Assembly (NCBI GenBank): GCA_012295275.1
Contig: CM022679.1
Span: 27,652,001-27,716,000, forward strand
DNA: 64,000 nucleotides
Source: Chrysomallon squamiferum
Taxonomy: Eukaryota; Animalia; Mollusca
Direction: 5' to 3'
Shown here: piece by piece, positions 388 through 26,341 of the stretch
How positions within the stretch are numbered: the stretch's first letter is position 1
Layout: the number at the start of each line of letters is the position of its first letter
Notes under the pieces: model-generated
Databases searched by the model: none
Seen by the model: only the letters and a program-made list of their open reading frames with translations
Told to the model about the DNA's origin: nothing
Made by a program: the position numbers and the translations under genes

Positions 388-878
388 GATAATCGGCAAG
401 CGATCTGTTTCCTCTGATTCGCCTCACATCAGAAGTTGTAAGTGTAGTACTTTTTGTCTAAACTAATACAAGAAAAAAATGTATATTTTTGTGGATACTT
501 ATGTACGTAACTAAGCATATATCACTGAATGAATATATGTATATATGTTTGTATGTATGTATGTCTGTATGTATGTAAGTATGTATGCATGCATGTATGT
601 ATGTATGATCGTATGCATGCATATATGTATGTGGATGTATGCATAAACGTGTGTATCTATGTATGTAGGTATGTCATCCATGTGTGTATGTGTATCTACG
701 TATGCATAGATAGATACGGACTGAAGAATGAATGGATATTGATGAAAAATAATGTCTCATTTAAATTTCTAAATTCTTTAATTATTGGCGACAGAGAGCT
801 GATATTATGTATTTATTTATTGTTTTTCTCGTTTCAGTGTCAGGAAAAGAGGGAGAAAGCAAGATGAGTTCACGATAA
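388..878 (+). CDS. 3' part (last two exons) of a secreted-peptide family paralog; 5' exons presumably lie left of the window
   Basis: ttttcAG|388-437|GTAAGT then gtttcAG|838-878(TAA), with AATAAA at 877-882. Phase-2 entry reads xIIGKRSVSSDSPHIRSLSGKEGESKMSSR*. Exon and flanking introns are homologous to 10849-10915 and 11301-11336. GKR is an amidation plus dibasic cleavage motif. Confidence 0.6.
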
Positions 879-957
879 TAAAATATTGTGTGATGAAAAC
901 ACCTATTTCTATCATTCTGTTAAGATAAAAAATCATAAAATCATTAACGATTTAACT

Positions 958-1066
<109 letters not shown>

Positions 1067-4000
1067 CATGCATTTTCTGTAAGCATTATCAGTATTTTAT
1101 TTTCATAAATGTAAAATAATATATATTTAAAAGACCAAATTTTCACTGAATAACTTTGCCTCATCGTATTTATAGTGCACTTAAATGTTCTTCTGTTCTT
1201 TTTTCGAAATTGAATGTCCTCCAAATCAAGAAAAGTGATAACAATTAATTTTATACTTACTTTTTCTTTCCCGAATGAAATTGGTCTGCACTTTGTAATT
1301 AAAAACACAATGTATATACATTGGAATGCAATGAAGCATCACGTTTGTTAAACAGATTCCTAGCGGTGCATCAATACTGTCTAAAACTATAACATATCTA
1401 TATATACAATATAACAATAGTGCAGCAATTCGATGAATACATCGGTGAATGATACTTCTCACTTTTTAAAATATCACTTTTTAAAATATAATTTGTAAAA
1501 TATTTAACGAGATTAGTCTTATTTCCGAGAACGTAACAATGCCGTTGACGAGACATGAACGTATGACACCCACATATGTATGTGTATGTGTATGTATATA
1601 TGTATGTGTGTCTGTATGTTTGTATGTATGTATGTATATGTGAGATTAACTGCATACTGAGCCTATATAAATAACAACTGTCTAACAAAAAATGTTTTCT
1701 TTTAGTAATTGGGAATCAGATGCATCATATTTATACTAAAACAAATTACATACAACATAGCTACTTCCTTCGTATTAATTACAGTATTCGAGTAAATGTC
1801 ACAAATAGTGTTTACATAGCACTGAAACTGACAATTATTCTTCTAATGATTCATCAACACTATTTTTTTTTTTTTAAATCACTGAATTAATAATAATCAT
1901 CAAAAATAAGACCTCACTAAAACTGATGTTCAATGACGTTAGAGAACTGGTTTCAGTAACACATATAAAGTGATCAGTAAATATGACTCATGTCGGAAGA
2001 TGTCGATGGACTAAAAAATTCAAATATACCGCGCTTTACGTTTCTCGTTTACGTAAGTTTAACGACTTTACGGGAGGCAGCGAAATGACCACCTACTCTC
2101 TAAGTACCAACTGAAAAATCGTGTCCTACGATTGTACTGTTGTTACTGTAATTACTAGCATGAATATGAATGAATATTCTTACTTCACATAATGCAATTT
2201 TGAATTAAACACTGTCTCCTCTGTTACATTAAAAACATTCAAATTTTGAAAAGAATATGTTCTCTTTCTTAGTTATAGTTTCCAGCTATCTGCAGTTAAA
2301 CTACACTGAATTTTGCAATTTGAAATCAGTGAACCTACAGGAAGCAAAAGAAAGACATAGTAACAAACACACAGGTCAGACTGACCAAATGACTGACACG
2401 TTAGCAAGTAAACTCTGTGAGATTATAGATGATAGAAAGATTGATAGGTAAATAAATAAATAGACAGATAGATAGATAGAGAGACAGAAAGACAGATAAA
2501 TATTTAGATGGATAGGTAGATAGATCGATAGATAGATTGATATATTAGACAGACGTTGAGAACAGAGTAGTGACGAATGGATCGATAGATAGATCGATAG
2601 ATGGATCGATAAAGACACATACATTCAGACAGACAGGTTGAAAGCCAGAGTGAGAGTCAGACATGGAGATTAAAATAAACCAAAATATGATAAAAGAAAT
2701 AAAGATTTATTCTGAATATTCATTTAATTCTCGACTGAGAAAATGTACAAGATTTTTTCTCGTTTCTGTTTTTTTTCTTTCTTCTTTGTCTTCTTCTTTT
2801 TTAAATTATTATCATTGCTTCTCAAAAACAGCTACAGTTATTTTATTTGTATCTTTATTATTAATATTACCATCATCATCAATTGCAAACGTCACAAAAG
2901 TGGCTTCAGTAGTTGTTGTAGTAAGTAATGGTTGTTGCTATAGTGGCTGTAGTAGTTGTTGCTGATGATGGTGTAGCAGTAACAATAACCTGTATACAAT
3001 TAAAGAATAGCTGTTAAAATACATTATATGTATTACTGTACAAACAACAGTCGGTATACTTAATGAATATGAAAAGCAAAAGAAAAAGGAAAACATAAGA
3101 TATGCCATTACTATTATTAAACATTTAATAAGATTAAAAACGCCTCTAATATTTGAAACATGAATATTAATACTGTCACAATTTTAATACCACTAAAAGT
3201 ATCTCCTTTATTATGGTACCATAAAAACATGAAATTACCAAACATGACTAATTATTAAATAACTGAATAAACTTTAATGACTTGTCTCCTCAAAAATAAA
3301 ATAAAATTAAATTAAACATTTCTGTCCATGTTCTAGGTCCACTGAAGGTCATCACAAATCAGAGGCATCATCAGGGCTCATAATGGTCATAAACCGTATT
3401 AGCATTTTCTCTACACCTGTCAGATTTATATTTCTGTACATTTTTATAAGTGACATCTACTGAATAATCCCCTTTCCTTGATGTTCTGAGTTTTCTTTCT
3501 TTTTATCATTTCTCCCTCAGTTTCTTCTTCTATTATTATTATTAATTTAGAAACCAATGTCAAGAAGTGCACACACATACACACACATCTATATACATAT
3601 TCACACATACATACATACCTATTACACACATACTTACATCTAAACAAATATATATACACACAGATACACATACATATATTCACATGTACATATATATACA
3701 CATATATCTATATACACATGTACATACATAGATACATATACACACATGCCTATGTACATACATACACTTTTAAGTTCTTTTTTCTAATACGCTATAGATA
3801 GTAAGAGTGTGACAGATAGAGAGATGACTGTTCATGCATTTACAGTTCAATTATTTTACGTAATCTTCTTAGTACTGTTAAAATAGAGACAGACAGAGTG
3901 TATGACAGATGTACAGATTAAAATATGTCAGTTTTCTTTTTAAGCTGTAACAATTTTAATATTTTTGACTGATTCATACTTTTCTGTCGTAGTACAGAAT

Positions 4001-4324
4001 AATATAATATTCAAATTTTTGATACAAAATATTTTATTACATTCGAACATGATAATTTTTAAAACCTCGTGTTATCGATATCGTAGATAGTCTTCAAGTA
4101 AGACTGTTGAATAACGCGACTGTTTTTGATATTTTCGCATGATATATATACATTTTATCATTAAAGTATCCCGACATTAAAGAAATTTAAAGAACAGAAA
4201 GACGGTATGACAGTTATCTTACTGCCAGATTTATAATTTTTAGACTAATATAATATTCAAATGTCTGTTACAAAATATGTTCCTACATTAGTACTTGATT
4301 ATTTTAAAAGGCTCGTGCATTCGA

Positions 4325-4875
4325 TATAGTACACTTTCTTCCTGCTAGTTTGTTGAATAACACTACTGTTTTCGGTAAGATGTTTTCACATTATAACTAT
4401 TTTTTCATATTAATATTTATCTTGAAAGAAGTATTAGAATTAAACACAATAAACATTTCATAATATTAGGTTATTACATATGTTAAAACTTCATGAGAGA
4501 AATACATTCATAATCATGATAGAGAGAGTGACACTGACATTTTCGTTTTTTTAATTTTCAAATTCAGTGTGAAATAAGGACAGTGATAGAACTTGAATAG
4601 TTATTTTCAATTAAAATTTATATATTTTTGCAATTAAAATGCTATACATTTGCCGACATCGATAATAAATTTCATTAATACTGTCTGAATTTAAAGGAAA
4701 TAATTTTTACCACTAGAAGCTTATTACTAAAATATGCCGAATGTCATATAAATTTCATTAAACAATTTTGGCATTCATTTAATAGGAAAACTCGTTGGAT
4801 TTGATAAATAATTTGTTTTTCTCGTTTCAGTGTCCGGAAAAGAGGGAGAAAGCAAGATGAGTTCACGATAATAAA
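4325..4875 (+). pseudogene. Internally deleted copy of the peptide gene (putative 5'UTR exon plus terminal poly(A) exon only)
   Basis: 4300-4392 is identical to 8130-8222, including the donor ttcg|GTAAGA at 4375. The signal-peptide and micro-exons are absent. The next acceptor is gtttcAG at 4830, followed by AATAAA at 4870-4875. Confidence 0.5.
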
Positions 4876-4979
4876 ATATTGTGTGATGAAAACACTTAAG
4901 TGTCTATTATGAATCTCTTTAACCTATTTCTATAATTCTATTTAGATAAAATGTCATAAAATCATTAACGATTTAACTA

Positions 4980-5060
<81 letters not shown>

Positions 5061-7250
5061 CATCCATCCATCCATCCATCCATTTTCTGTAAGCATTATC
5101 AGTATTTCATTTTAATAAATGTAAAATAATATATATTTAAAAGACCAAATTTTCACTAAATAACTTTGCCTCATCGTATTTATAGTGCACTTAAGTGTTC
5201 TTCTGTTCTTTTTTCGAAATTGAATGTCCTCCAAATCAAGAAAAGTGATAACAATTAATTTTATACTTACTTTTTCTTTCCCGAATCAAACTGGTCTGCA
5301 CTTTGTAATTACAAACACAATGTCTATACATTAGAATCCAATGAAGCATCAATTTGTTAAACAGATTGCTAGTGGCGCATTAATAGTGTCTAAAACTAAA
5401 GCATATCTATACACAATATAAAAATAGTATAGCAGTTAGACTCAATATATCGGTAAATGATATTTCTCACTTTTTAAAATATAATTTGTAAAATTTTTAA
5501 CGAGATTATTCTTATTTCCGAGAAAGTAACAATGCCGTTGATGAGATTTTAACGTATGACACCCACATATGTATGTGCATGTGCATGTATGTATGTAGGT
5601 ATGTATGTATGTATGTATGAATGTATGTATGTATGTATGTATGTATTTATGTATTTGTGAGATTAACTACGTACTGAGCCTATAGAAAAAACAACTGTCT
5701 AACAAAAAACTGGTTTTTTTTAGTATTTGGGAATAAGTTTGATCATATTTATAATGACACGAATTACATACAACATACCTTTTTCCTTCTTGTTAATTAC
5801 AGTATTCGAGTAAATGTCACTTTTGTAAATCAGTTTTTACATACCACTGACTCCTTAATGAACAACATCCATGTATATAATCTATACACGTTTATGTCTT
5901 TCTACATGTGAGTCTTCAATTGTGTGTATTCACCTGTCCCTTTAACCAATTATATAGCTAACTGTATATCTATGCATCTATGCATCTGTCTATCTATCTA
6001 TCTCTCTATCTGTCTCTCTGTATGTCTATCTATCCATCTGTCTATCTATCTGTCTATCTGCCTGTCTATCTAAATGTATAATATATGCATAAATGGGTTG
6101 AATATGTCTCATAATTAATCTTCTAATGATTCATAAAACCTTTTTTATTTTAAATTTCTGAATAATAATCATCAAAAATAACAACTCACTAAAACTGATG
6201 TTCAATGACTTAAAAATACTGGTTTCAGTAACACATATAAAGTGATCAGTAAATATGACTCATGTTGAAAGATGTCGGTGGACGAAAAAATTCAAAAATC
6301 GTACCACCTACTCTCTAAAAACTAACTGAAAAATCGTGTCATTCGATTGTACTGTTGTTACTGTAATTACTGGAAGTTTCCTAATGTGAATGAATATTCC
6401 TATTTCACATAATGCAATATTTAATATTTAATTTAAAAATGTTTCCTCTGTTACATTAAAACATTCAAATTTTGAAAATAAAATGTTCTCTGTCTTAATA
6501 AATAAATAAATAGACAGATAGATAGAGAGATAGAAAGAGAGATGAATATTTAGACAGAAGATAGATAGATACATAGATAGATAGATAGACTGATATATTA
6601 GTCAGACAGACAAAGAAAACAGGGTAGTGACAAATGGATCGATAGATCGATCGATAGAGACACATACATTCAGAGAGACGAGTAGAGTCAGACCTGAAGA
6701 TTACAATAAACCAAATATTCTATGGAAGATGAAAGAAATAAGGATTTATTCTGAATATTCATTTGATTTTTATGCCCTAGACTGAGAAAATATACGATTT
6801 GTTCTTTTTTGTGTTTTATTTATTATTTGTTTGTAATATATACCATTACTACTATTAAGACATTAGATAAGACTAAAAACGCCTCTAATATTTGAAATAT
6901 GAATATTAATACTGTCACAATTTTAATAACAGCATCTTCTTTATTATGGCACCACTAAAAATATGAAATTACCAAACATGACTATTTATTAAATCAGTGA
7001 ATAAACTTTAATGACTTATCTCCTCAAAAATAAAATAAAATAAAATTAACAATTTCTCTACATGTTGCAGGTCAGTTGAGGGTCACAACAAATCACAGTC
7101 ATCATCAGGGCTCATACTGGTCATAAACCATATCAGCATTTTCCCTACACCTGTCAGATTTATAGTTCTGTACATTTCTATTTCTGACATCTACTGAATA
7201 ATCCCCTTCCCTTGACATGCTGAATTTTCTTTCTTTATATCATTTCTACC

Positions 7251-7298: not shown

Positions 7299-8129
7299 GA
7301 TTATTATTCATTTAGAAATCAATATCAAGAAGTGCACACACACATCTATATAAATATCTGTGCATACATACATATTACATAGATATAACATACATACATG
7401 CTTACACCTATACAAATATATATATACACACAGACACACATACATATATACACATGTACATTCAAACATATATATGTGTATATATATATACAGACACATG
7501 TACATACATAGATACATATACATACATACAAATATATAAACATACACTTAGTCAAGAAATGCACACTCATTCACACACATCTATATACATATCTATACAT
7601 AAATACATATATATTATATACATACATGCTTACACCAATACAAACATATATATATACACAGACACACATACATATACACACATGTACAGATTAAAATATG
7701 TCAGTTTTCTTTTTAAGCTGTAACAATTTTAATATTTTTGACTGATTTATACTTTTCTGTCGTAGTACAGAATAATATAATATTCAAATTTTTGATACAA
7801 AATATTTTATTACATTCGTACATGATTTTAAAAAGCTCGTGTTATCGATATCATAGATATTCTTCCAGGAAGGTTGTTGAATAACACAACTGTTTTTGAT
7901 ATTTTCACATGATATATATACATTTTATCATTAAAGAATCCCGACATTAAAGAAATTTAAAGGACCGAAAGACCGTGTGACAGATATAGAGATTAAAATA
8001 TGTCAGTTATCTTTCTAAGCTGTCATAATTTTAACATTTACTGTCAGATTTGTAATTTTTTGTCGTTGTAAAGACTAATATAATATTCAAATGTCTGAAA
8101 CAAAATATGTTATTACATTAGTACATGAT

Positions 8130-8210: not shown

Positions 8211-8457
8211 TGTTTTCACATTTTATATATATTTTTAATGATCCCGACAGTGCTAATAAATTTCATGAAACAGTATTCACAATCATTTAATAAGACAATG
8301 TGTTGGATTTGATAAATAATCATCCTATAGTAGATATTTCATATATTATAATAGTTATTATATTAATCAGCGTAGAAAGAAAAAAATGTATAATTTAATC
8401 ACTAAAAATATATTTATTTCGCTAAAACTCTCCATGTTTCAGTTGACCTGGTGTGCA

Positions 8458-10466
8458 ATGTCTGCACTGAAACTGAAAATCTTTCTCGTCTTGCTAATTT
8501 TGGGATCAGTGGAGGCCGGGTCAGCTGATGGATGGGAACCTTACAAACCACTGTAAGATTTATTTTAGCTGTCTTCCTATGTTAATCCAAATGTAAATTA
8601 TTTTATTTTGTAAGATTTATTTCTATTCTTGTTACTCAATAAATATCAGACGAGGTTGGAAAATTCAAAATAATTATAATTATTGATGATTCTGTGAAAT
8701 AGTGTTTCCTTCTAATCCAATAACAAAAAAGAATTAGAATTATTAAGAGTTGATCATTAGTTTATGTTTCTCTTTCTTTTTCTGTCTTTTTTTTTTTTTT
8801 TTTTCACAACTACAGCAACTTAGACCCACGTTGTCATTTTGCTAAATAGTACTGATATCAGTGTTCACTTTTCAGAAACAGAAGGAGTGCTCGTGGGTGA
8901 GTATCAATTTATCTAAAAAAGAAGTACACACATATACATACATACATACATGTATGTAGCAAACAGTACGAAAAACAATAATGATGATGATGATGATACT
9001 AACAGTACAGCCAAACCACTTACACCAGAAAGCCCACCACCATCATACAAAACAACATCATGAACAACGAAAATAATAATAATAATAATTGATGATTCTG
9101 ATGATGAATGTGATGATAATGATATTTGTGATGATGAATAGCGAAGAATGGTAATAATAAAAAATGTGATAATTATTTCATTGCTATATCTACTGAAAAG
9201 TAAAAAAAAAAAAAAAATATTATTTGTCTATGCTCCTCAGCTGGTAAGTATCAATTACAAGTAAGCATTTTAATTGTATTTACATGATTGCAAACAAATT
9301 CTAATATCACAATGAAAGAAGCAAATACACATCTGGCCTGTTATAAGTTTATGTGCTTTAAAATAAATATTTTTAAATGCATTTTGCACAGACTAACCAT
9401 GAGATGGATCCAAATTTATTTTTAAGTTCCGATACTTATTATTTGATTGATAATTGTTTCTCTTCAAAATATCAAACAAACAAACAGCCTGGCAAGTCTC
9501 ATTCTCTTAAATTGTAAAACAATTTAATTCAGCAGAAATATTATATATTGGGTCTTAGTTTTGTAAAACGTATCAGAAACCATTAAAACAAGTCTCTTTG
9601 ATATATTCGTAAGTTAATAGAGAGCACCCCACCTGGAAAAAGAACTGAATGGGGATTTCATGCAGTATGAACATAATGGCATTAAAACAGACGACATTGA
9701 TAAACAAATAAATTGTTAAAAAGGACCTCATTATATATGACAATGCTGATAATGCTGAATTCATTTTCTAACAAATGGACACTCAATCAGTTTATGCTTT
9801 TTAAACGTTCACACTTCTTTTCCTGCAAATGTATACTTTTTACTTCCCTGTATATGTGAAGCATATTTATCCTTATTAGTGTATTGATTAAGGACTTTTT
9901 TCTTTGATTGTTTGTCACTTTTATTCTTTGTTTTGCTATCTGATAATATATCAAAATAAAAGTAACACAATCAAAACATCTTTCTTTTATCTTTTTAAAA
10001 CAGGTCGAGAAGACATGCGTGAGTCCTATTCTCTTAAACTCTAAGACAAATTACATCAGCAGAAATATTAGATTGGGTCTTAGTTTTGTAATACGTATTA
10101 GATATTATTACACACACGTCTCACTGATATATTAATAACGTAATACGTACCCATGAATTTTGCCTCGGAACAAAACTTGAATGAGGACTTCATGTAGTAT
10201 GTTCATCATGACCTTAAAGCAGACGACATTAATTAAAAATAAACTGTTCATTTTGTGTGAAAATATTGATAATGCTCAATTCATTTTTCTAACTAATAGA
10301 CATTCCATCATTTTATAATATAAACACTCACACTTCTTTTGCTATAAACATATACAGGCTTCCTCCACTGTCTAAGTGAAGCATATTATCCTTATTAGTG
10401 TATAATTGATACAATATAAAGTCACTAATGTATAATACAGGTGGTATAATACAGACTATAACAAAC

Positions 10467-10507: not shown

Positions 10508-10915
10508 TAATAATAATAACCACAATAAAAATAATCATTATAATTATTAGAACATACACTGAATTTAAATTCAAACGGTAATTTGCCAATATTAGAGATA
10601 TCAGAGCTAAATAAGAAGAAGAAGAAGAAAGAGAAGAAGAGAACAAATAAATACCCTTAATAAACGACTGATCACAGAAGATGTTCCTAAGACAGCAGTT
10701 GAGATACATTCTTTATTTCAAAGACGATGTCAAAATGAAGAGAAAACTTCTAAACTGTTCATTATAAATATCAGTATAGAGGTCATCTAAAGCAAGATAA
10801 AATAAAAATGTCTCCGAAATGTGACTAAAATATAATCTATATTTTCAGGAAGCGATCTAACTCTAAGTTGAATGACTTCAGCAGTTTGTCTGACCTCTTC
10901 GGAAACAAGGAATAA
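8458..10915 (+). CDS. Micro-exon gene A: small secreted cationic peptide precursor (~66 aa), family unidentified
   Basis: Exons 8458-8552, 8876-8896 (21 nt), 9241-9243 (3 nt, least certain), 10004-10018 (15 nt) and 10849-10915. All introns are GT-AG and phase 2. Translation: MSALKLKIFLVLLILGSVEAGSADGWEPYKPLNRRSARGWSRRHAKRSNSKLNDFSSLSDLFGNKE*. The N-terminus is a classic signal peptide (basic n-region, hydrophobic core, small residues at -3/-1). AATAAA overlaps the stop and recurs at 11331. Confidence 0.7.
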
Positions 10916-12104
10916 ATATGTGTTTATGCATATTTATGTACGTAACTATGCATATATGTATTTATGTATATATGAATATTTGTACCTATGTACGTATGCA
11001 TGCATATATGTATTTGGATGTAAGCATAAACGTGTGTATGTAGGTAGGTATGTAGGTAGGTAGGTGCATGTATGTGTATATGTATCAACGTATGCATAGA
11101 TAGATAAATATATAGTTATCGACTGAAGAATAAATGAATAGTGATAAAAATAATGTCTAATTAAAATTTAAAAAAAAAATTGTTTTTGGCGACAGAGAGC
11201 TGAGATTATTTATTTATTTATTGTTTTTCTTTTCTTTTCTTTTTTTTTCTTTTTTATATATATTTTTTTTCTTTCTTTCTTTTTTAGCCCCGCTTTACAG
11301 TGCCTGGAGAAAGAAATATGAGTTCACGATAATAAAATATTGTGACATGGAAAACACTTAAGTGTCTGTTATGAATCTGTTTTACCTATTTCTATAATTT
11401 TATTTAAATATGAAGTCTTAAAATCATTAACAATTTAACTAAAATATCTCTCTTTCTCATTCTCTCTCTCTCTCCATTTGCAGAAGCATTATTAGTATTT
11501 TGTGTTTTGTAATCAGTATACTCTCCTTTTTACATTATGTATTAGTATTTAATATCTGATGCTCTCCTAATAAATTACTACATGTAAACCTCGAATAATG
11601 TTGAAACTGAGACAGCTTTAAACGAAAAACATGGAACATTGAAACGTTTAATATCCGCACATCACATATTTCTGTCTTTCTATCTTTGTGTATGTCTGTC
11701 TTTCTATTTAGCGAGAGAAGGATAAAGATTTTATTCTTAAAATATTAATTTCCTTAAAAATTATCAATTTATTTTTTTAACTATACCAACTATGAAGCTA
11801 GAACTGATAGTGCTTAAGAACGAAAATAATTATGATCGAAATCCAATTTTTCGTTATAGTGATTTAATTTTTCGTGAAGGTGTCCTAATGCAACTGAGAT
11901 GATATGAAATGATTTGGTAAAAAAGAATGTGATAATTAAATTCACTAATAAGTTAAGTAATGTTTCATTGTTATGTGTTATTTATGTATTGTTTCATTAT
12001 GAAATATTAATGCTAAAATTGATGAAAATATCCTTGAAACGAAGGTATCAGACTAAATCCTGTAGATATTAACATACGTATAATAGTAATAATAATAATA
12101 ATAA

Positions 12105-12135
<31 letters not shown>

Positions 12136-12803
12136 AAGAAGAAGAAGAAGAAGAATATTAATAATAAATAAATAAATAAATAAACGAAAAGAAAAAGAAG
12201 AAAAACTGAAGAAACATAATAGTTTCTTTATTATTGCTATTTTTATATAATCTAAGTTAAAAACTTGTGTGAAATGATTTTACTTTCTTATTATTAGTAT
12301 TATTAGTAGCAGTATTGTTGTTGTTGTCGCTGATAATTTCATTGTTATCATTATTATTACTGTTGTGATTATTATTATTGTTATAGTTATTATTATTATT
12401 ATTATTATCATTCTGAAACATTCATCATCATAATCATCAATTATAATAATAATTATTATTAATATTATTACTATTATTGTTATAATTACTCTTGTTGTTG
12501 TTGTTGTTGTTGTTCTTATTATTATTATTATTATTATTATCATCATCATCATCATCATCATCATCATCGTTATCATTATCATTATAACAACGATTGTATA
12601 TTCTTAATTTACATCATTTACCCAATTCTCGATCATCAGTAATGATAACTATTGTTCCAGTTGTATGAGACTAAATTACCTAATCTCAGTAACGGTAAAT
12701 GAAAGAATAAAACATGTTAAATGAAACGTCTGAATCCTACATGTTAGTGTAACGGAAAGATGATGGAGGACATTTTGACTGAGAAATATAATAGTTTGGA
12801 ACA

Positions 12804-12838
<35 letters not shown>

Positions 12839-12977
12839 CGTAAAATTTAGATGTTGTATGTATCTATATATTCAATTCAAAAAATAAAAAATAATAAAAA
12901 AAATAAAGAAATGAATATTGTGTAGATAAAATAATAAAAAATAAAAATAATATATTAATATTATTATTTATTGTGGA

Positions 12978-13037
<60 letters not shown>

Positions 13038-13916
13038 CATCATCGTCGTCGTCATCATCATCATCATCATCATTATTTATTTATTTATTATATTTATTTT
13101 TATTATTATTATTTGTTGCTACTTTTCCATTAATATCCTTCTTATTTTTTCTTAAATAAAGAAAGCAGGAGAAAACGACGTAATTGGCAGATTTTCTATA
13201 TATTAGTGTACCTGTTAAATTATAAGTTCATTTTCTAGTATTTTGTTTTCACGCACCTCTTATTTTCTTTTTTAGTTTATCAGTTAAGAAAATGTAGTAT
13301 TAACCATCGGTGTTATTAAATATACCTTTATTGTGAATACACCTGCAGAAGATACAGAAAATAAACGAGAAATGTCATAGGTATCAAGAATCTTTTAGAA
13401 AACGGAAAAACTGTTTTCAGAGGGGATGAAAAGAATGGAAATTTAATGTGGAACGAAGACTTTATTAATATATGATTAGTAGATGTAGAAACAGTGTAGT
13501 AATTAGAAATTTAGTCTCATACAACTGGAACAATAGTTATCATTACTGATGATCGAGAACTGGGTAAACAATGTAAATTAAGAATATGCAATCATTGTTA
13601 TAATGATAATGATAACGATGATGATGATGATGATGATGATAATAATAATAAGAACAACAACAACAACAACAACAGCAACAAGAGTAATTATAACAACAAT
13701 AATAATAATAATAATAACTGTAACAATAATAATAATCACAACAGTAATAATAATGATAATAATGAAATTATCAGCGACAACAACAATACTGCTACTAATA
13801 ATACTAATAATAAGAAAGTAAAATCATTTCACACAAGTTTTTAACTTAGATTATATAAAAATAGCAATATTAAAGAAACTATTATGTTTCTTCTGTTTTT
13901 TTCTTTTTCTTTTCGT

Positions 13917-13947
<31 letters not shown>

Positions 13948-13958
13948 TTACTAATATT

Positions 13959-13989
<31 letters not shown>

Positions 13990-15078
13990 TTCTTCTTCTT
14001 CTTATTAGTATTATTATTATTATTATTATTATATTATTATGTTAATATCTACAGTATTGAATCTGGTACCATCCTTTCAAGGTTGTTTTCATCACTTTTA
14101 GTATTAATATTTCATAATGAAATAATACATAAATAACACATAACAATGAAACATTACTTAACTTGTTAGTGAATTTAATTATCACATTCTTTTTTACCAA
14201 ATCATTTCATATCATCTCAGTTGCATTAGGACACCTTCACGAAAAATTTAATCACTATAACGAAAAATTGGATTTCGATCATAATTATTTTCGTTCTTAA
14301 GCACTATCAGTTCTTGCTTCATAGTTGGTTAAACAAATAAATTGATAATTTTTAAGGAAATTAATATTTTAAGAATACAATCTTTATCCTTCTCTCGCTA
14401 AATAGATAGATAGAAAGACAGACATATACAAAGATAGAAAGATAGAAATATGTGATGTGCGGATATTAAACGTTTCAATATTCGATGTTTTTCGTTTAAA
14501 GCTGTCTCAGTTTCAACATTATTCGAAGTTTACATGTAGTAATTTATTAGGAGAGCATCAGATATTAAATACTAATACATAATGTAAAAAGGAGAGTATA
14601 CTGATTACAAAACACAAAATACCAATAATGCTTCTGGAAATGGAGAGAGAGAGAGAGAGAGAGAATGAGACAGAGAGATATTTTAGTTAAATTGTTAATT
14701 ATTTTAAGACTTCATATTCAAATAAAATTATAGAAATAGGTAAAACAGACTCATAACAGACACTTAAGTGTTTTCCATGACAATATTTTATTCAAACGGT
14801 AATTTGCCAATATTAGAGATATCAGAGCTAAATAAGAAGAAGAAGAAGAAGAAGAATAAGGAGAAGAAGAGAACAAATAAATACCCTTAATAAATGACTG
14901 ATCACAGAAGATTTTCCTAAGACAGCAGTTGAGATACATTCTTTATTTCAAAGACTATGTCAAAATGAAGAGAAAACTTCTAAACTGTTCATTATAAGTA
15001 TCTGTATAGAGGTCATCTAAAGTAAGATAAAATAAAAATGTCTCCGAAATGTGACTAAAATATAATCTATATTTTCAG

Positions 15079-15145
15079 GAAGCGATCTACCTCTAAGTTG
15101 AATGACTTCAGCAATTTGTCTAAACTCTTCGGAAACAAGGAATAA
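15079..15145 (+). other. Duplicated terminal coding exon of the peptide gene (orphan or alternative last exon)
   Basis: Intact ttttcAG acceptor; reads xKRSTSKLNDFSNLSKLFGNKE*. Confidence 0.55.
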
Positions 15146-15651
15146 ATATGTGTTTATGGATATTTATGTACGTATCTATGCATATATGTATTTATGTATA
15201 TATGAATATTTGTACGTATGTACGTATGCATGCATATATGTATTTGGATGTAAGCATAAACGTGTGTATGTAGGTAGGTAGGTAGGTAGGTGCATGTATG
15301 TGTATATGTATCTACGTATGCATAGATAGATAAATATATAGATATCGACTGAAAAATAAATGAATAGTGATAAAAATAATGTCTAATTAAAATTTCAAAA
15401 TTCTTTTGTTTTTGGCGACAGAGAGCTGATATTATTTATTTATTTATTTATTGTTTTTCTTTTCTTTTCATTTTTTTTCATTTTTTTTTCTTTTTTAGCC
15501 CCGCTTTACAGTGTCAGAAGAAAGAAATATAAGTTCAAGATAATAAAATATTGTGACATGGAAAACACTTAAGTGTCTCTTATGAATCTGTTTTACCTAT
15601 TTCTATAATTTTATTTAAATATGAAGTCTTAAAATCATTAACAATTTAACT

Positions 15652-15770
<119 letters not shown>

Positions 15771-16395
15771 CCAGAAGCATTATTAGTATTTTGTGTTTTG
15801 TAATCAGTATACTCTCCTTTTTACAGTATGTATTAGTATTTAATATCTGATGCTCTCCTAATAAATTACTACATGTAAACCTCGAATAATGTTGAAACTG
15901 AGACAGCTTTAAACGAAAAACATGGAACACTGAAACGTTTAATATCCGCACATCACATATTTCTGTCTTTCTATCTTTGTGTATGTCTGTCTTTCTATTT
16001 GCTTGAGAGAAGGATAAAGATTTTATTCTTAAAATATTAATTTCCTTAAAATTATCAATTTATTTTTTTAACTATACCAACTATGAAGCTAGAACTGATA
16101 GTGCTTAAGAACGAAAATAATTATGATCGAAATCCAATTTTTCGTTATAGTGATTTAATTTTTCGTGAAGGTGTCCTAATGCAACTGAGATGATATGAAA
16201 TGATTTGGTAAAAAAGAATGTGATAATTAAATTCACTAATAAGTTAAGTAATGTTTCATTGTTATGTGTTATTTATGTATTGTTTCATTATGAAATATTA
16301 ATGCTAAAATTGATGAAAATATCCTTGAAACGAAGGTATCAGACTAAATCCTGTAGATATTAACATACGTATAATAGTAATAATAATAATAATAA

Positions 16396-16426
<31 letters not shown>

Positions 16427-17245
16427 AAGAAGAATATTAATAATAAATAAATAAATAAATAAACGAAAAGAAAAAGAAGAAAAACTGAAGAAACATAATA
16501 GTTTCTTTATTATTGCTATTTTTATATAATCTAAGTTAAAAACTTGTGTGAAATGATTTTACTTTCTTATTATTAGTATTATTAGTAGCAGTATTGTTGT
16601 TGTTGTCGCTGATAATTTCATTGTTATCATTATTATTACTGTTGTGATTATTATTATTGTTATAGTTATTATTATTATTATTATTATCATTCTGAAACAT
16701 TCATCATCATAATCATCAATTATAATAATAATTATTATTAATATTATTACTATTATTGTTATAATTACTCTTGTTGTTGTTGTTCTTCTTCTTCTTCTTC
16801 TTATTATTATTATTATTATCATCATCATCATCATCATCATCATCATCGTTATCATTATCATTATAACAACGATTGTATATTCTTAATTTACATCGTTTAC
16901 CCAATTCTCGATCATCAGTAATGATAACTATTGTTCCAGTTGTATGAGACTAAATTACCTAATCTCAGTAACGGTAAATGAAAGAATAAAACATGTTAAA
17001 TGAAACGTCTGAATCCTACATGTTAGTGTAACGGAAAGATGATGGAGGACATTTTGACTGAGAAATATAATAGTTTGGAACACTAAAAAAAAAAAAAAAA
17101 AAAAACCTCGTAAAATTTAGATGTTGTATGTATCTATATATTCAATTCAAAAAATAAAAAATAATAAAAAAATAAAGAAATGAATATTGTGTAGATAAAA
17201 TAATAAAAATAAAAATAATATATTAATATTATTATTTATTGTGGA

Positions 17246-17305
<60 letters not shown>

Positions 17306-18218
17306 CATCATCGTCGTCGTCATCATCATCATCATCATCATTATTTATTTATTTATTATATTTATTTTTTATTATTATTATTTGTTGCTACTTTTCCATT
17401 AATATCCTTCTTATTTTTTCTTAAATAAAGAAAGCAGGAGAAAACGACGTAATTGGCAGATTTTCTATATATTAGTGTACCTGTTAAATTATAAGTTCAT
17501 TTTCTAGTATTTTGTTTTCACGCACCTCTTATTTTCTTTTTTAGTTTATCAGTTAAGAAAATGTAGTATTAACCATCGGTGTTATTAAATATACCTTTAT
17601 TGTGAATACACCTGCAGAAGATACAGAAAATAAACGAGAAATGTCATAGGTATCAAGAATCTTTTAGAAAACGGAAAAACTGTTTTCAGAGGGGATGAAA
17701 AGAATGGAAATTTAATGTGGAACGAAGACTTTATTAATATATGATTAGTAGATGTAGAAACAGTGTAGTAATTAGAAATTTAGTCTCATACAACTGGAAC
17801 AATAGTTATCATTACTGATGATCGAGAACTGGGTAAACAATGTAAATTAAGAATATACAATCATTGTTATAATGATAATGATAACGATGATGATGATGAT
17901 GATGATGATAATAATAATAAGAACAACAACAACAACAGCAACAAGAGTAATTATAACAACAATAATAATAATAATAATAACTGTAACAATAATAATAATC
18001 ACAACAGTAATAATAATGATAATAATGAAATTATCAGCGACAACAACAATACTGCTACTAATAATACTAATAATAAGAAAGTAAAATCATTTCACACAAG
18101 TTTTTAACTTAGATTATATAAAAATAGCAATATTAAAGAAACTATTATGTTTCTTCTGTTTTTCTTCTTTTTCTTTTCGTTTATTTATTTATTTATTTAT
18201 TTATTTATTACTAATATT

Positions 18219-18249
<31 letters not shown>

Positions 18250-19333
18250 TTCTTCTTCTTCTTATTAGTATTATTATTATTATTATTATATTATTATGTT
18301 AATATCTACAGTATTGAATCTGGTACCATCCTTTCAAGGTTGTTTTCATCACTTTTAGTATTAATATTTCATAATGAAATAATACATAAATAACACATAA
18401 CAATGAAACATTACTTAACTTGTTAGTGAATTTAATTATCACATTCTTTTTTACCAAATCATTTCATATCATCTCAGTTGCATTAGGACACCTTCACGAA
18501 AAATTTAATCACTATAACGAAAAATTGGATTTCGATCATAATTATTTTCGTTCTTAAGCACTATCAGTTCTTGCTTCATAGTTGGTTAAACAAATAAATT
18601 GATAATTTTTAAGGAAATTAATATTTTAAGAATACAATCTTTATCCTTCTCTCGCTAAATAGATAGATAGAAAGACAGACATATACAAAGATAGAAAGAT
18701 AGAAATATGTGATGTGCGGATATTAAACGTTTCAATATTCGATGTTTTTCGTTTAAAGCTGTCTCAGTTTCAACATTATTCGAAGTTTACATGTAGTAAT
18801 TTATTAGGAGAGCATCAGATATTAAATACTAATACATAATGTAAAAAGGAGAGTATACTGATTACAAAACACAAAATACCAATAATGCTTCTGGAAATGG
18901 AGAGAGCGAGAGAGAGAGAATGAGACAGAGAGATATTTTAGTTAAATTGTTAATTATTTTAAGACTTCATATTCAAATAAAATTATAGAAATAGGTAAAA
19001 CAGACTCATAACAGACACTTAAGTGTTTTCCATGACAATATTTTATTCAAACGGTAATTTGCCAATATTAGAGATATCAGAGCTAAATAAGAAGAAGAAG
19101 AAGAAGAAGAATAAGGAGAAGAAGAGAACAAATAAATACCCTTAATAAATGACTGATCACAGAAGATTTTCCTAAGACAGCAGTTGAGATACATTCTTTA
19201 TTTCAAAGACTATGTCAAAATGAAGAGAAAACTTCTAAACTGTTCATTATAAGTATCTGTATAGAGGTCATCTAAAGTAAGATAAAATAAAAATGTCTCC
19301 GAAATGTGACTAAAATATAATCTATATTTTCAG

Positions 19334-19400
19334 GAAGCGATCTACCTCTAAGTTGAATGACTTCAGCAATTTGTCTAAACTCTTCGGAAACAAGGAATAA
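19334..19400 (+). other. Duplicated terminal coding exon of the peptide gene (third + strand copy)
   Basis: Same sequence and intact acceptor as 15079-15145. Confidence 0.55.
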
Positions 19401-19909
19401 ATATGTGTTTATGGATATTTATGTACGTATCTATGCATATATGTATTTATGTATATATGAATATTTGTACGTATGTACGTATGCATGCATATATGTATTT
19501 GGATGTAAGCATAAACGTGTGTATGTAGGTAGGTAGGTAGGTAGGTGCATGTATGTGTATATGTATCTACGTATGCATAGATAGATAAATATATAGATAT
19601 CGACTGAAAAATAAATGAATAGTGATAAAAATAATGTCTAATTAAAATTTAAAAAAATTCTTTTGTTTTGGCGACAGAGAGCTGATATTATTTATTTATT
19701 TATTTATTGTTTTTCTTTTCTTTTTTTTTTTTTTTTTTTTTTTTTTTCTTTTTTAGCCCCGCTTTACAGTGTCAGAAGAAAGAAATATAAGTTCAAGATA
19801 ATAAAATATTGTGACATGGAAAACACTTAAGTGTCTCTTATGAATCTGTTTTACCTATTTCTATAATTTTATTTAAATATGAAGTCTTAAAATCATTAAC
19901 AATTTAACT

Positions 19910-20017
<108 letters not shown>

Positions 20018-20625: not shown

Positions 20626-20684
<59 letters not shown>

Positions 20685-21501: not shown

Positions 21502-21564
<63 letters not shown>

Positions 21565-23683
21565 CATCATCGTCGTCGTCATCATCATCATCATCATCAT
21601 TATTTATTTATTTATTATATTTATTTTTATTATTATTATTTGTTGCTACTTTTCCATTAATATCCTTCTTATTTTTTCTTAAATAAAGAAAGCAGGAGAA
21701 AACGACGTAATTGGCAGATTTTCTATATATTAGTGTACCTGTTAAATTATAAGTTCATTTTCTAGTATTTTGTTTTCACGCACCTCTTATTTTCTTTTTT
21801 AGTTTATCAGTTAAGAAAATGTAGTATTAACCATCGGTATTATTAAATATACCTTTATTGTGAATACACCTGCAGAAGATACAGAAAATAAACGAGAAAT
21901 GTCATAGGTATCAAGAATCTTTTAGAAAACGGAAAAACTGTTTTCACAGGGGATGAAAAGAATGGAAATTTAATGTGGAACGAAGACTTTATTAATATAT
22001 GATTAGTAGATGTAGAAACAGTGTAGTAATTAGAAATTTAGTCTCATACAACTGGAACAATAGTTATCATTACTGATGATCGAGAACTGGGTAAACAATG
22101 TAAATTAAGAATATACAATCATTGTTATAATGATAATGATAACGATGATGATGATGATGATGATGATGATAATAATAAGAACAACAACAACAACAACAAC
22201 AGCAACAAGAGTAATTATAACAACAATAATAATAATAATAATAACTGTAACAATAATAATAATCACAACAGTAATAATAATGATAATAATGAAATTATCA
22301 GCGACAACAACAATACTGCTACTAATAATACTAATAATAAGAAAGTAAAATCATTTCACACAAGTTTTTAACTTAGATTATATAAAAATAGCAATATTAA
22401 AGAAACTATTATGTTTCTTCTGTTTTTCTTCTTTTTCTTTTCGTTTATTTATTTATTTATTTATTTATTTATTACTAATATTCTTCTTCTTCTTCTTCTT
22501 CTTATTCTTCTTCTTCTTATTAGTATTATTATTATTATTATTATTATTATATTATTATGTTAATATCTACAGGATTGAATCTGGTACCATCCTTTCAAGG
22601 TTGTTTTCATCACTTTTAGTATTAATATTTCATAATGAAATAATACATAAATAACACATAACAATGAAACATTACTTAACTTGTTAGTGAATTTAATTAT
22701 CACATTCTTTTTTACCAAATCATTTCATATCATCTCAGTTGCATTAGGACACCTTCACGAAAAATTTAATCACTATAACGAAAAATTGGATTTCGATCAT
22801 AATTATTTTCGTTCTTAAGCACTATCAGTTCTTGCTTCATAGTTGGTTAAAAAAATAAATTGATAATTTTTAAGGAAATTAATATTTTAAGAATACAATC
22901 TTTATCCTTCTCTCGCTAAATAGATAGATAGAAAGACAGACATATACAAAGATAGAAAGATAGAAATATGTGATGTGCGGATATTAAACGTTTCAATATT
23001 CCATGTTTTTTGTTTAAAGCTGTCTCAGTTTCAACATTATTCGAGGTTTGCATGTAGTAATTTATTAGGAGAGCATCAGATATTAAATACTAATACATAA
23101 TGTAAAAAGGAGAGTATACTGATTACAAAACACAAAATACTAATAATGCTTCTGGAAATGGAGAGAGAGAGCGAGAGAGAGAGAATGAGACAGAGAGATA
23201 TTTTAGTTAAATTGTTAATTATTTTAAGACTTCATATTCAAATAAAATTATAGAAATAGGTAAAACAGACTCATAACAGACACTTAAGTGTTTTCCATGA
23301 CAATATTTTATTATCGTGAACTCATATTTCTTTCTCCTGGCACTGTAAAGCGGGGCTAAAAAAGAAAAAAACAAAAAAACAATAAATAAATAAATAATAT
23401 CAGCTCTCTGTCGCCAAAAACAAAAGAATTTTGAAATTTTAATTAGACATTATTTTTATCACTATTCATTTATTCTTCAGTCGATATCTATATATTTATC
23501 TATCTATGCTTACGTAGATACATATACACATACATGCACCTACCTACCTACCTACCTACATACACACGTTTATGCTTACATCCAAATACATATATGCATG
23601 CATACGTACATAGGTACAAATATTCATATATACATAAATACATATATGCATAGTTACGTACATAAATATGCATAAACACATAT

Positions 23684-24078
23684 TTATTCCTTGTTTCCAA
23701 AGAGGTCAGACAAACTGCTGAAGTCATTCAACTTAGAGGTAGATCGCTTCCTGAAAATAAAGATTATATTTTAGTCACATTTCGGAGACATTTTTATTTT
23801 ATCTTACTTTAGATGACCTCTATACTGATATTTATAATGAACAGTTTAGAATTTTTCTCTTCATTTTGACATCGTCTTTGAAATAAAGAATGTATCTCAA
23901 CTGCTGTCTTAGGAAAATCTTCTGTGATCAGTCATTTATTAAGGGTATTTATTTGTTCTCTTCTTCTCTTTCTTCTTCTTCTTCTTCTTATTTAGCAATA
24001 TCTCTAATATTGGCAAATTACCGTTTGAATTTAAATTCAATGTATGTTCTAATAATTATAATGATTATTTTTATTGTG

Positions 24079-24131: not shown

Positions 24132-26341
24132 TATTATATAGTTTGTCATAGTCCGTATTATACCACCTGTAATATACATTAGTGACTTTATATTGTATCA
24201 ATTATACACTAATAAGGATAACATGCTTCACTTAGACAGTGTTTGTTTGTTTGATATTTTGAAGAGAAACAATTATCAATCAAATAATAAGTATCGGAAC
24301 TTAAAAATAAATTTGGATCCATCTCATCGTTAGTCTGTGCAAAATTCATTTAAAAATATTTATTTTAAAGCACATAAACTTATAATAGGCCAGATGTGTA
24401 TTTGCTTCTTTCATTGTGATATTAGAATTTGTTTGCAATCATGTAAATACAATTAAAATGCTTACTTGTAATTGATACTTACCAGCTGAGGAGCATAGAC
24501 AAATAATATTTTATTTTTTTTACATTTCAGTAGATATAGCAATGAAATAATTATCACATTTTTTATTATTACCATTCTTCGCTATTCATCATCACAAATA
24601 TCATTATCATCACATTCATCATCAGAATCATCAATTATTATTATTATTATTTTCGTTGTTCATGATGTTGTTTTGTATGATGGTGGTGGGCTTTCTGGTG
24701 TAAGTGGTTTGGCTGTACTGTTAGTATCATCATCATCATCATTATTGTTTTTCGTACTGTTTGCTACATACATGTATGTATGTATGTATATGTGTGTACT
24801 TCTTTTTTAGATAAATTGATACTCACCCACGACCACTCCTTCTGTTTCTGAAAAGTGAACACTGATATCAGTACTATTTAGTAAAATAACAACGTGGGTC
24901 TAAGTTGCTGTAGTTGTGGTAATAATAAAGACAGAAAAAGAAAGAGAAACATAAACTGAGTCTGTTTGTTTGTTTAATATTTTGAAGAGAAACAACAATT
25001 ATCAATCAAATAATAAGTATCGGAACTTAAAAATAAATTTGGATCCATCTCATGGTTAGTCTTCTCAAAATTCATTTAAAAATATTTATATTAAAGTGCA
25101 TAAAATTACAACAGGTCAGATGTGTATTTGTTACTTCAATTTTGATGTAAGAATTTGTTTGGTACTGTTGTAAATACAGTTAAGATCCCTACTGATAATT
25201 GACACATACCATTCTCTCAAGGGAACACATAAATAAAAATAAAAATCAATTTTTCAGCAGACATAATAATGAAATAATTATCACATTTCTTACTATTACC
25301 ATTCATCGCTGTACACATACTATTCATCAACACATATAATATTCATCGGAATCATCAATTATTTTTATTATTATTATTATTATTGTTGTTCTTGTTGTTG
25401 ATTATGTTGTTTTTTGTGTTGGCGGTTGCAGTTGTGGTGTAGGTGGTTTGGCTGTACTCACCTACGAATACTCTTTTTCAATCTGTAAAAGTGAACACTG
25501 ATATTAGTACAATTTAGTATTATCATCATTATTATCTTTGTTGTTTTAGCTGCTGTTTGCCACTCTCTCTCACACACACACTTCTGTGTGGAGATAAATT
25601 GATACACACAGATAAGCCCTACTTCTGTTTCTGAAAAGTGAACACTGATATGAGTACTATTTAGTAAAATAACAACGTGGGTCGAAGTTGCTGTAGTTGT
25701 GGAAGAAAACAAACAAAGACAGAAAAAGAAAGAGAAACATAAACTAATGATCAACTCTTAATAATTCTAATTCTTTGTTGTTATTGGATTAGAAGGAAAC
25801 ACTATTTCACAGAATCATCAATAATTATAATTATTTTTGTCGTTGTTCATGATGTTGTTTTGTATGATGGTGGTGGTCGTTCTGGTGCAAGTGGTTTGGC
25901 TGTACTGTTAGTATCATCATCATCATCATTATTGTTTTTGTAATGATAAATGATACTCACAGTGTGCTGAAACATGTGCAAAAAAGAAATATATATAATA
26001 ATATAATAAAGCGTTTTACACAAAATATGAATGGAATTAGTTCTTTCTCTATAACATATACTTGTAAATAACAGCGACCATAGGATATACAAAGAAACAT
26101 TTAAATAGTCTGAATCTGGAATCCTTCGTCTTGAATTTTCCAACCTCGTCTGATATTTATTGAGTAACAAGAACAGAAATAAATCTTACAAAATAAAATA
26201 ATTTACATTTGGATTCACATAGGAAGACAGCTAAAATGAATCTTACGGTTGATCGTAATGTTCCCATCCATCAGCTGACCCGGCCACCACTGATCCCAAA
26301 ATTAGTAAGACGAGAAACATTTTCAGTTTCAGTGCAGACAT
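23684..26341 (-). CDS. Micro-exon gene B: inverted paralog, small secreted cationic peptide precursor (up to ~77 aa)
   Basis: Exons 26341-26247, 25966-25961 (6 nt), 25630-25610 (21 nt, weak GTGTGT donor), 25482-25462 (21 nt), 24847-24827 (21 nt), 24485-24483 (3 nt) and 23750-23684. All are phase 2 and the joined frame is open: MSALKLKMFLVLLILGSVVAGSADGWEHYDQPTLNRSRAYLLKKSIRRNRRSGRGWKRSTSKLNDFSSLSDLFGNKE*. Confidence 0.65.

What the first reader, a model, noticed from the sequence alone, without database searches (positions are those of the whole stretch)
8521..8552. Conserved signal peptide, hypervariable mature start: positive-selection signature
Seen: comparing 8458-8552 with 26341-26247, the first 81 nt differ at 3 sites, while the last 14 nt differ at 5 sites, all in amino-acid-changing codons (PYKPL to HYDQP). 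The adjacent intron is again nearly identical. Homologous 21-nt exons read NRRSAR, NRRSGR, NRSRAY and LKKSIR with conserved acceptor flanks. Established: this pattern typifies conotoxins and host-defence peptides. Inference: diversifying selection; counts are small.
Basis: partly seen in the sequence, partly recalled or inferred. Interest (0 to 1): 0.72.

Follow-up and report, generated by a model that had tools for sequence, protein, structure and literature searches.

The report
Fast-evolving micro-exon peptides in vent snail
In a snail related to deep-sea vent gastropods, duplicated genes for a small, predicted secreted peptide differ far more in the peptide-coding part than in the DNA around it and appear to be built from tiny swappable exons, which likely marks a positively selected, possibly antimicrobial peptide family with no match in the databases searched.

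Summary
Two inverted copies (A 8458+, B 26341-) differ at 3 of the first 81 nt and 5 of the last 14 nt of the signal exon, against 93 of 3,497 nt in non-coding flanks; no 14-nt flank window reaches 5.

Five changes alone cannot show selection (P about 0.3 for no synonymous change). Contigs of a public run add two more exon forms. Across the mature start and four 21-nt exons, 28 of 28 changes alter residues (P about 0.0005; 0.02 if only single-base changes count). Diversifying selection is likely.

Two corrections. The signal is not more conserved than the introns. The animal is not a cone snail: a neighbouring GPCR groups with the vent snail Gigantopelta.

The genes have symmetric phase-2 micro-exons (3, 6, 15, 21 nt) that are duplicated and deleted between copies. 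They build a predicted cysteine-free, Arg-rich core ending at Lys-Arg. No homologue was found. It looks like mussel myticalins (linear cationic defence peptides) with schistosome-MEG-like exons, but is a member of neither family. Expression and activity are untested; a reproductive peptide is the main rival.

The parts
8443..8552 (+). Gene A first coding exon: 15 nt of 5' UTR, ATG at 8458, predicted signal peptide (codons 1-23), start of mature peptide (8527-8552), phase-2 donor GTAAGA
   Evidence: signal GRAVY 1.56; cleavage site judged by eye, no SignalP run
8527..8552 (+). Hypervariable mature start: 13 variable sites among copies A, B and two X1 forms, all non-synonymous
   Evidence: codon classes read by hand
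8876..8896 (+). Gene A 21-nt phase-2 micro-exon (NRRSAR)
9241..9243 (+). Gene A 3-nt micro-exon (CAG acceptor, GTAAGT donor)
9488..9491 (+). 4-nt GC-donor candidate, likely a decayed exon; its inclusion shifts the frame
10004..10018 (+). Gene A 15-nt micro-exon (SRRH)
   Evidence: a diverged paralogous 15-nt exon is seen as an X1 loose end
10849..10915 (+). Gene A Lys-Arg exon. The strong donor of the paralogue at 438 is deleted here; it either reads through to a stop at 10913-10915 or uses a weak phase-1 GTTTGT donor at 10884
11301..11340 (+). Gene A last exon: in frame for a phase-1 junction, stop overlapping AATAAA
26247..26356 (-). Gene B first coding exon (ATG at 26341), inverted duplicate of A
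25961..25966 (-). Gene B 6-nt micro-exon; this part of the intron is absent from A
25610..25630 (-). Gene B 21-nt exon (NRSRAY), degenerate GTGTGT donor; 6 of 21 differences from A vs 9 of 182 in the upstream intron
25462..25482 (-). Gene B older 21-nt exon (LKKSIR), GTGAGT donor
24827..24847 (-). Gene B 21-nt exon (NRRSGR), within a 728-nt block 97% identical to A
24483..24485 (-). Gene B 3-nt micro-exon; downstream, a stretch of about 880 nt holding A's 15-nt exon is deleted
   Evidence: the same deletion joint is in X1
23684..23750 (-). Gene B Lys-Arg exon to stop
23303..23342 (-). Gene B last exon with stop and AATAAA
388..437 (+). Lys-Arg exon of a more diverged upstream paralogue (5' part lies outside the window), with Gly before Lys-Arg (amidation-type signal) and an intact GTAAGT phase-1 donor
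838..886 (+). Last exon of that paralogue, in frame with the exon at 388
820..4880 (+). Repeat unit whose upstream region is joined directly (about 4812) to a last exon: all other coding exons are deleted
15079..15551 (+). Orphan Lys-Arg exon and last exon in a 4.26-kb tandem repeat
19334..19809 (+). Second orphan Lys-Arg exon and last exon

Best explanation
This is a tandem and inverted cluster of small gene copies in a snail whose nearby GPCR groups with Gigantopelta; the copies are predicted to encode secreted prepropeptides whose Arg-rich core is likely diversified by positive selection and by gain and loss of in-frame micro-exons, and likely acts as a linear cationic host-defence or microbe-control peptide. 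Shown: the duplications, the excess of residue-changing differences in core exons, symmetric micro-exons with canonical splice sites, open frames, Lys-Arg sites and deleted copies. Inferred: splicing and expression; signal cleavage after residue 23; convertase cleavage at Lys-Arg releasing a 22-residue (A) or 26-33-residue (B) core of net charge +4 to +6 (internal Arg-Arg sites could cut it shorter); selection as the cause; antimicrobial function. My odds are about 0.75 for a real peptide family under diversifying selection and about 0.45 for that together with a defence or microbe-control role.
For: Core vs flank divergence: 5 of 26 vs 93 of 3,497; pooled young comparisons 12 of 68 vs 16 of 705, P=8e-7. 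No synonymous change among 13 sites in exon 1 and 15 in the 21-nt exons: joint P=0.0005 at the measured ts/tv; 0.005 when a 15-nt pair with 2 synonymous of 8 is added; 0.019 for single-base changes only. Listed signal changes are 3 non-synonymous and 3 synonymous vs 13 and 0 (P=0.02). 7 of 7 strong-donor micro-exon candidates on the sense strand of the two genes are multiples of 3, vs 1 of 10 elsewhere in the window. All 8 of 8 and 32 of 32 skipping combinations stay open. Predicted cores: pI 11.4 and 11.3 (10.9 without the weak exon), 19-23% Arg, no Cys. This matches the myticalin precursor plan: signal, variable core with pI>11 and >10% Arg, Lys-Arg, often Gly for amidation, an intron just before ATG, a phase-1 intron in the C-terminal extension, tandem copies and pseudogenes (PMC5577615; PMC12294457).
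Against: No transcript or peptide evidence is in hand. No sequence homologue ties it to any defence peptide. The region was chosen after seeing the cluster, and sites were treated as independent. Window-only single-base changes give P=0.08. The X1 forms were phased by me from matching contig depths, its tables list only sites 31 or more letters from contig ends and 8 of 44 records, and X1 may not be independent of the assembly. A and B have lost the strong donor of the Lys-Arg exon, B is a chimera with one weak-donor exon, and several neighbours are fragments, so some copies may be decaying. The hypervariable stretch itself is neutral to acidic in A and B, not the cationic part, and the C-terminal tail is short (19 aa, net -1), not anionic as in myticalins.
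Confidence: 0.45

Rival explanations
1. A real, positively selected secreted peptide family, but reproductive or pheromonal (sperm, seminal or egg peptide) rather than defensive.
For: Exon-faster-than-flank divergence is also reported for abalone fertilization genes (10.1101/107672, passages). Abalone sp6/FITZAP is a small, rapidly evolving, furin-processed gastropod sperm peptide with splice isoforms (PMC6952181, passages). The several dibasic sites could release short signalling peptides.
Against: FITZAP is strongly anionic and has two exons, whereas these cores are cationic and cysteine-free. The precursor plan fits myticalins in several details.
Confidence: 0.22
2. No selection: the cluster comes from multi-nucleotide mutation, compensating small indels or patchy gene conversion among decaying duplicates.
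For: Three non-coding 26-nt clusters with 5-6 differences exist in the same duplication. A gapped alignment needs only 2 substitutions and 2 gaps, and P(2 or more in 26) is 0.15. Several changes are adjacent. The region is full of rearranged and broken copies.
Against: The pattern repeats in separate exons and forms (exon 1 in B and in two X1 forms; the 21-nt exon at 25630, P=0.0016). It stops at exon borders and contains no synonymous change even among single-base events (0 of 15). The X1 form keeps the ungapped register of A. No donor for either patch lies elsewhere in the window apart from one 5-mismatch hit at 51905. Gap events are 13 against 93 substitutions.
Confidence: 0.18
3. A secreted neuropeptide-like or structural (mucus, shell or scale matrix) peptide that diversified after duplication.
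For: Signal peptide plus Arg-Arg and Lys-Arg sites and a Gly-Lys-Arg site in one paralogue are also the marks of neuropeptide precursors (own knowledge).
Against: Neuropeptide mature regions are normally the conserved part (own knowledge). No Pfam or PDB match. There are no repeats or motifs typical of matrix proteins.
Confidence: 0.12
4. A venom peptide (conotoxin or octopus SF1-type mimic toxin).
For: [quoted passage not shown]
Against: The scaffold's GPCR is sister to Gigantopelta aegis (100/100), in a family of symbiont-hosting, grazing, filter- or deposit-feeding snails (PMC7895826). There are no cysteines. SF1 genes are octopod-only and mostly two-exon (10.64898/2026.02.02.703354).
Confidence: 0.03

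Closest known systems
Myticalins / modiocalins (mussel linear cationic antimicrobial peptides; PMC5577615, PMC12294457)
   Same: Signal, hypervariable Cys-free Arg-rich core with pI near or above 11, Lys-Arg site, Gly-Lys-Arg in some members, C-terminal extension, intron just before ATG, last intron phase 1 within the extension, tandem copies and pseudogenes.
   Different: Signal does not fit the myticalin consensus; the core is split over phase-2 micro-exons instead of lying in one exon; the extension is about 19-24 aa and not anionic (35-75 aa, anionic in myticalins); gastropod rather than mytilid; activity untested.
Schistosome micro-exon genes (MEGs; PMC4350168, 10.1101/2023.06.21.545858)
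   Same: Secreted product, very small symmetric exons in multiples of 3, expansion by duplication, excess of non-synonymous change.
   Different: 3-5 micro-exons covering 20-31% of the coding sequence (59-73% of the core) against 10-20 exons covering most of it; MEGs are described as restricted to flatworms; a prohormone-type Lys-Arg precursor; alternative splicing not shown here.
Conotoxin genes (10.1101/107672)
   Same: Mature-coding exons diverge faster than adjacent non-coding DNA; gene turnover.
   Different: Not a cone snail; no cysteines; the signal here is not slower than its flanks; the mature region is spread over micro-exons.
Abalone sperm sp6/FITZAP (PMC6952181)
   Same: Small, rapidly evolving, convertase-processed secreted peptide of a related gastropod lineage.
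   Different: FITZAP is anionic with poly-Asp and has two exons; no similarity seen.

Membership tests
Myticalin | Signal peptide matching the family consensus | tested here: not met
   Exon-1 translation compared by eye with the consensus printed in PMC5577615; only general hydrophobicity is shared
Myticalin | Cys-free core with pI>11 and >10% Arg before a Lys-Arg site | tested here: met
   A: 22 aa, pI 11.44, 23% Arg; B: 33 aa, pI 11.31, 21% Arg (10.88 without the weak-donor exon); on predicted gene models
Myticalin | Three exons, with signal, core and dibasic site in one exon | tested here: not met
   Core split over phase-2 micro-exons
Myticalin | Intron just before ATG and phase-1 intron in the C-terminal extension | tested here: met
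   Acceptor 15 nt before ATG; phase-1 GTAAGT donor at 438 in frame with the last exon; only a weak donor in A and B
Myticalin | Anionic C-terminal extension of 35-75 aa | tested here: not met
   19 aa, net -1
Myticalin | Antimicrobial activity and gill expression | not testable with these tools
   Needs synthesis and tissue RNA
Schistosome MEG | Very small symmetric exons | tested here: met
   3, 6, 15, 21 nt, all phase 2; 7 of 7 multiples of 3; predicted, not confirmed by RNA
Schistosome MEG | Micro-exons make up most of the coding region (10-20 exons) | tested here: not met
   20% (A) and 31% (B) of the CDS
Schistosome MEG | Variant pool made by alternative splicing | not testable with these tools
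   All skips keep the frame, but no transcript is in hand
Schistosome MEG | Flatworm origin | tested here: not met
   Gastropod by the scaffold's GPCR
Conotoxin | Conoidean host and venom-duct expression | tested here: not met
   GPCR sister to Gigantopelta, apart from Nucella and Babylonia; no Conus row was in the tree; expression not tested
Conotoxin | Mature exon diverges faster than flanking non-coding DNA | tested here: met
   About 7-fold in raw differences, 9-fold per non-synonymous site
Octopus venom superfamily SF1 | [quoted passage not shown] | tested here: not met
   Gastropod host and 5-8 coding exons; features from 10.64898/2026.02.02.703354; the flanking genes were not searched for

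The most novel reading that the evidence does not exclude
A vent-snail family of symbiont-control or defence peptides that combines the myticalin-type precursor with a MEG-like cassette of symmetric micro-exons, so that positive selection, exon duplication or deletion and exon skipping together generate a combinatorial library of short cationic peptides: an independent origin of micro-exon diversification outside flatworms, in a lineage that hosts chemosynthetic bacteria.
Probability: 0.2. Interest if true: 0.8.

Novelty: new variant of a known kind. Interest (0 to 1): 0.52.

Why it matters
The selection signature itself is a textbook pattern. What is less ordinary is the gene: an apparently undescribed peptide family whose variable core is assembled from 1- to 7-codon exons that are gained and lost between copies. 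Such genes are easily missed by annotation, which would explain the lack of database hits. If expressed at a microbe-facing tissue, it gives concrete, synthesizable candidates for how vent snails manage bacteria (the word 'antimicrobial' has 0 occurrences in the main text of the Gigantopelta hologenome paper), and a case of micro-exon-based peptide diversification in a mollusc.

Tried and rejected
Whole genome: none held, so the full paralogue set could not be collected.

RNA: no RNA holder listed. Contigs of three metatranscriptome runs X2-X4 showed only short, low-identity matches. This is no evidence either way.

Homologue searches of exon 1: ESM Atlas gave no usable hit for A and only sub-0.9 hypothetical clusters for B. 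phmmer on 1.84 billion representatives gave one hit with no matched stretch, a repetitive 1,054-aa sequence, rejected as spurious. The word-index search gave 0 hits at longer and near lengths. Pfam gave 0 families for 4 of 4 exon translations. PDB gave 5 non-significant COX1 hits for exon 1 and none for the Lys-Arg exon. All queries were single exons of 21-40 aa, so sensitivity was low; the spliced precursor was not searched. A 19-nt signal pattern in metagenome contigs gave 2 hits, both chance with no extension.

An early reading as an octopus venom tachykinin-type gene was dropped after the GPCR search and tree. The 4-nt GC-donor exon at 9488 was rejected as constitutive because it shifts the frame. 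Earlier scan findings: none by place, sequence or words. Paper searches for a described micro-exon peptide family in molluscs or peptides of these snails listed nothing of the kind; only listings and abstract starts were seen, and the library is open-access only.

Full report
OBSERVATION. Copy A (8458-8552, +) and copy B (26341-26247, -) lie in an inverted duplication of 3.7 kb at 95.7% identity. The alignment confirms the counts: 3 differences in the first 81 nt (8481 I>M, 8493 synonymous, 8513 E>V) and 5 in the last 14 nt (8540, 8545, 8547, 8549, 8552), all in residue-changing codons. The shared intron start differs at 3 of 116, and all non-coding aligned DNA at 93 of 3,497 (2.7%; 40 transitions, 53 transversions). 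No 14-nt non-coding window (0 of 3,484) has 5 differences; 24 of 3,472 26-nt windows do, in three clusters. Taking the mature part as 8527-8552 (signal cleavage after residue 23, judged by eye), 5 of 26 gives Fisher P=0.0006 against the flank, 0.005 against the intron and 0.033 against the signal (3 of 69). The cluster is more than chance. The signal, at 4.3%, is not slower than the flank.

ORGANISM. No genome is held. A GPCR exon at 40678-41412 (-) is 78% identical to an RYamide-receptor-like protein of Gigantopelta aegis and 71% to Haliotis rubra (80 hits). In a 20-row tree (the window protein plus 19 of those hits, picked by me) it is sister to Gigantopelta at 100/100. Gigantopelta is a peltospirid neomphaline; the family is endemic to vents and includes symbiont-hosting, grazing and filter-feeding genera (PMC7895826, passages). 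The species is not determined. Caveat: the peptide cluster lies left of a 200-N gap (30964-31163) that is followed by a CCCTAA telomere array, and the GPCR lies right of it, so the link is by scaffold only.

GENE ANATOMY. A splice-site scan finds on the sense strand of A exons of 21, 3 and 15 nt, and in B exons of 6, 21, 21 and 3 nt with strong donors plus one 21-nt exon with a degenerate GTGTGT donor. All 7 of 7 strong-donor candidates in the two gene spans are multiples of 3, against 1 of 10 elsewhere in the window (P=0.0004; counted as four length classes, 0.012). The antisense spans gave 2 weak candidates, neither in frame. Exon 1 ends in phase 2 and a Lys-Arg exon (10849; 23750) begins in phase 2. 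The models give ORFs of 66 aa (A) and 77 aa (B), and every skipping combination stays open (8 of 8; 32 of 32). Between signal and Lys-Arg lie cysteine-free cores of 22 aa (net +4, pI 11.4, 23% Arg) and 33 aa (net +6, pI 11.3, 21% Arg). A more diverged paralogue ends at 388-886: its Lys-Arg is preceded by Gly (amidation-type signal) and a GTAAGT phase-1 donor joins in frame to a last exon whose stop overlaps AATAAA. All 6 of 6 copies of that last exon keep this frame. A, B and two orphan copies have deleted the strong donor; A and B either read through to a stop or use a weak phase-1 GTTTGT (10884 in A). The core is unaffected either way. B is a chimera: its 3' half is 97% identical to A over 728 nt, it carries two extra 21-nt exons and a 6-nt exon, and it lacks the 15-nt exon; the deletion joint is also in run X1. 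One repeat unit (820-4880) has lost all coding exons but the last. This is a birth-and-death cluster in which micro-exons are duplicated and deleted with their flanks.

MORE COPIES. Contigs of public run X1 (kind not on record; it holds 0.64 of the words; independence from the assembly unknown) were laid on 8390-8915 (44 records laid, 8 shown, only sites 31 or more letters from a contig end listed). Matching contig depths, I read three exon-1 forms: copy B itself (9 differences, as in the window), a form with D24H, G25K, W26S, Y29R, K30R and L32P (8 of 26 nt), and a form with D24V and G25E. This phasing is my inference. Intron contigs there differ at 2 and 6 of 85. One contig across the acceptor and signal differs at 8 of 73, so the signal varies too; of its listed sites plus A-B, 3 are non-synonymous and 3 synonymous.

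SELECTION TEST. By hand classification, all 13 variable sites in 8527-8552 and all 15 variant bases among the four 21-nt exons change residues. Expected synonymous fractions are 0.22 and 0.26 at ts/tv weight 1.5. Adding the 15-nt exon against an X1 loose-end paralogue (2 synonymous of 8) gives 0.005. Dropping multi-base codon changes leaves 0 of 15, P=0.019; with window data alone this weakens to 0.082. The 21-nt exon at 25630 differs from A's at 6 of 21 vs 9 of 182 upstream (P=0.0016), and pooled young comparisons give 12 of 68 vs 16 of 705 (P=8e-7). Against: the region was chosen after the fact, sites were treated as independent, and a low gap penalty realigns the 14 nt as 2 substitutions and 2 gaps, though the X1 form keeps the ungapped register and gaps are 13 events against 93 substitutions. 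Relaxed constraint alone would give intron-like rates with synonymous changes, which is not seen. I put diversifying selection on a real peptide family at about 0.75.

MECHANISM. Most likely the precursor enters the secretory path, loses its signal, and is cut at Lys-Arg (amidated where Gly precedes it) to release a short linear cationic peptide; selection changes its residues while symmetric micro-exons let its length and charge change without breaking the frame. Duplication, divergence, splice signals and frames are shown; expression, processing and activity are inferred. A defence or microbe-control role is preferred because the precursor plan matches myticalins in core chemistry, Lys-Arg or Gly-Lys-Arg, intron before ATG, phase-1 intron in the extension, clustering and pseudogenes (PMC5577615, passages and section 2.1; PMC12294457, passages). 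A reproductive peptide is the main rival: abalone fertilization genes show the same exon-over-flank pattern (10.1101/107672, passages) and sp6/FITZAP is a small furin-processed sperm peptide (PMC6952181, passages).

MEMBERSHIP AND NOVELTY. It is not a myticalin (signal, exon plan and extension fail), not a MEG (micro-exons are 20-31% of the CDS; MEGs are described as small-symmetric-exon secreted genes that appear restricted to flatworms, PMC4350168, passages; 10-20 exons, 10.1101/2023.06.21.545858, part 1 of 3), not a conotoxin, and not octopus SF1 (10.64898/2026.02.02.703354, parts 1-3 of 10 and passages; its figures and supplements were not seen). Sequence searches with single exons found no relative, at low sensitivity. 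Paper searches (listings only) showed no description of such a family. It works like a known kind, the hypervariable secreted prepropeptide, with an unusual micro-exon core. Verdict: new variant of a known kind, interest 0.52.

Noticed in passing
window 30964-33050: A 200-N gap followed by a (CCCTAA)n telomere array grading into CCCTGA variants and a 42-nt satellite (33059-35060). The peptide cluster is scaffolded outside a chromosome end, so its placement may be a mis-join or it may be subtelomeric.
   Followed up: partly
window 40678-41412 and about 35617-36005 (-): Two-exon RYamide/luqin-receptor-like GPCR, 78% identical to a Gigantopelta aegis protein; used as the taxon marker.
   Followed up: yes
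window 11447-23312: 4.26-kb tandem units, 98% identical, each holding an inverted 1.2-1.4-kb arm pair (86-88%) and an orphan Lys-Arg exon plus last exon. May be real copy-number variation, alternative terminal exons for gene A, or an assembly artefact.
   Followed up: partly
window 820-4880: Repeat unit with the upstream region fused at about 4812 to a last exon: an emptied copy of the peptide gene.
   Followed up: partly
window 7070-7160 (+), with homologues near 3337 (+) and in the B duplicate: Candidate 5' UTR exon after a TTGCAG acceptor, conserved in the upstream repeat units; donor not fixed.
   Followed up: no
window about 55300-62800 (-): Multi-exon gene whose exon near 61620-61710 reads like a BTB-domain protein of the germ cell-less type (recognised from recall, not searched).
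   Followed up: no
window 8087-8124: Non-coding cluster of 6 differences between A and B within 26 nt, in a region with a local 250-nt duplicate; possibly a gene-conversion patch, and the best local counter-example to the selection reading.
   Followed up: partly
window about 25210-25220 (-): Decayed homologue of the 3-nt micro-exon after the LKKSIR exon (GAG acceptor, GTATGT donor); read as a 6-nt exon it would create a stop, so it is probably skipped.
   Followed up: no
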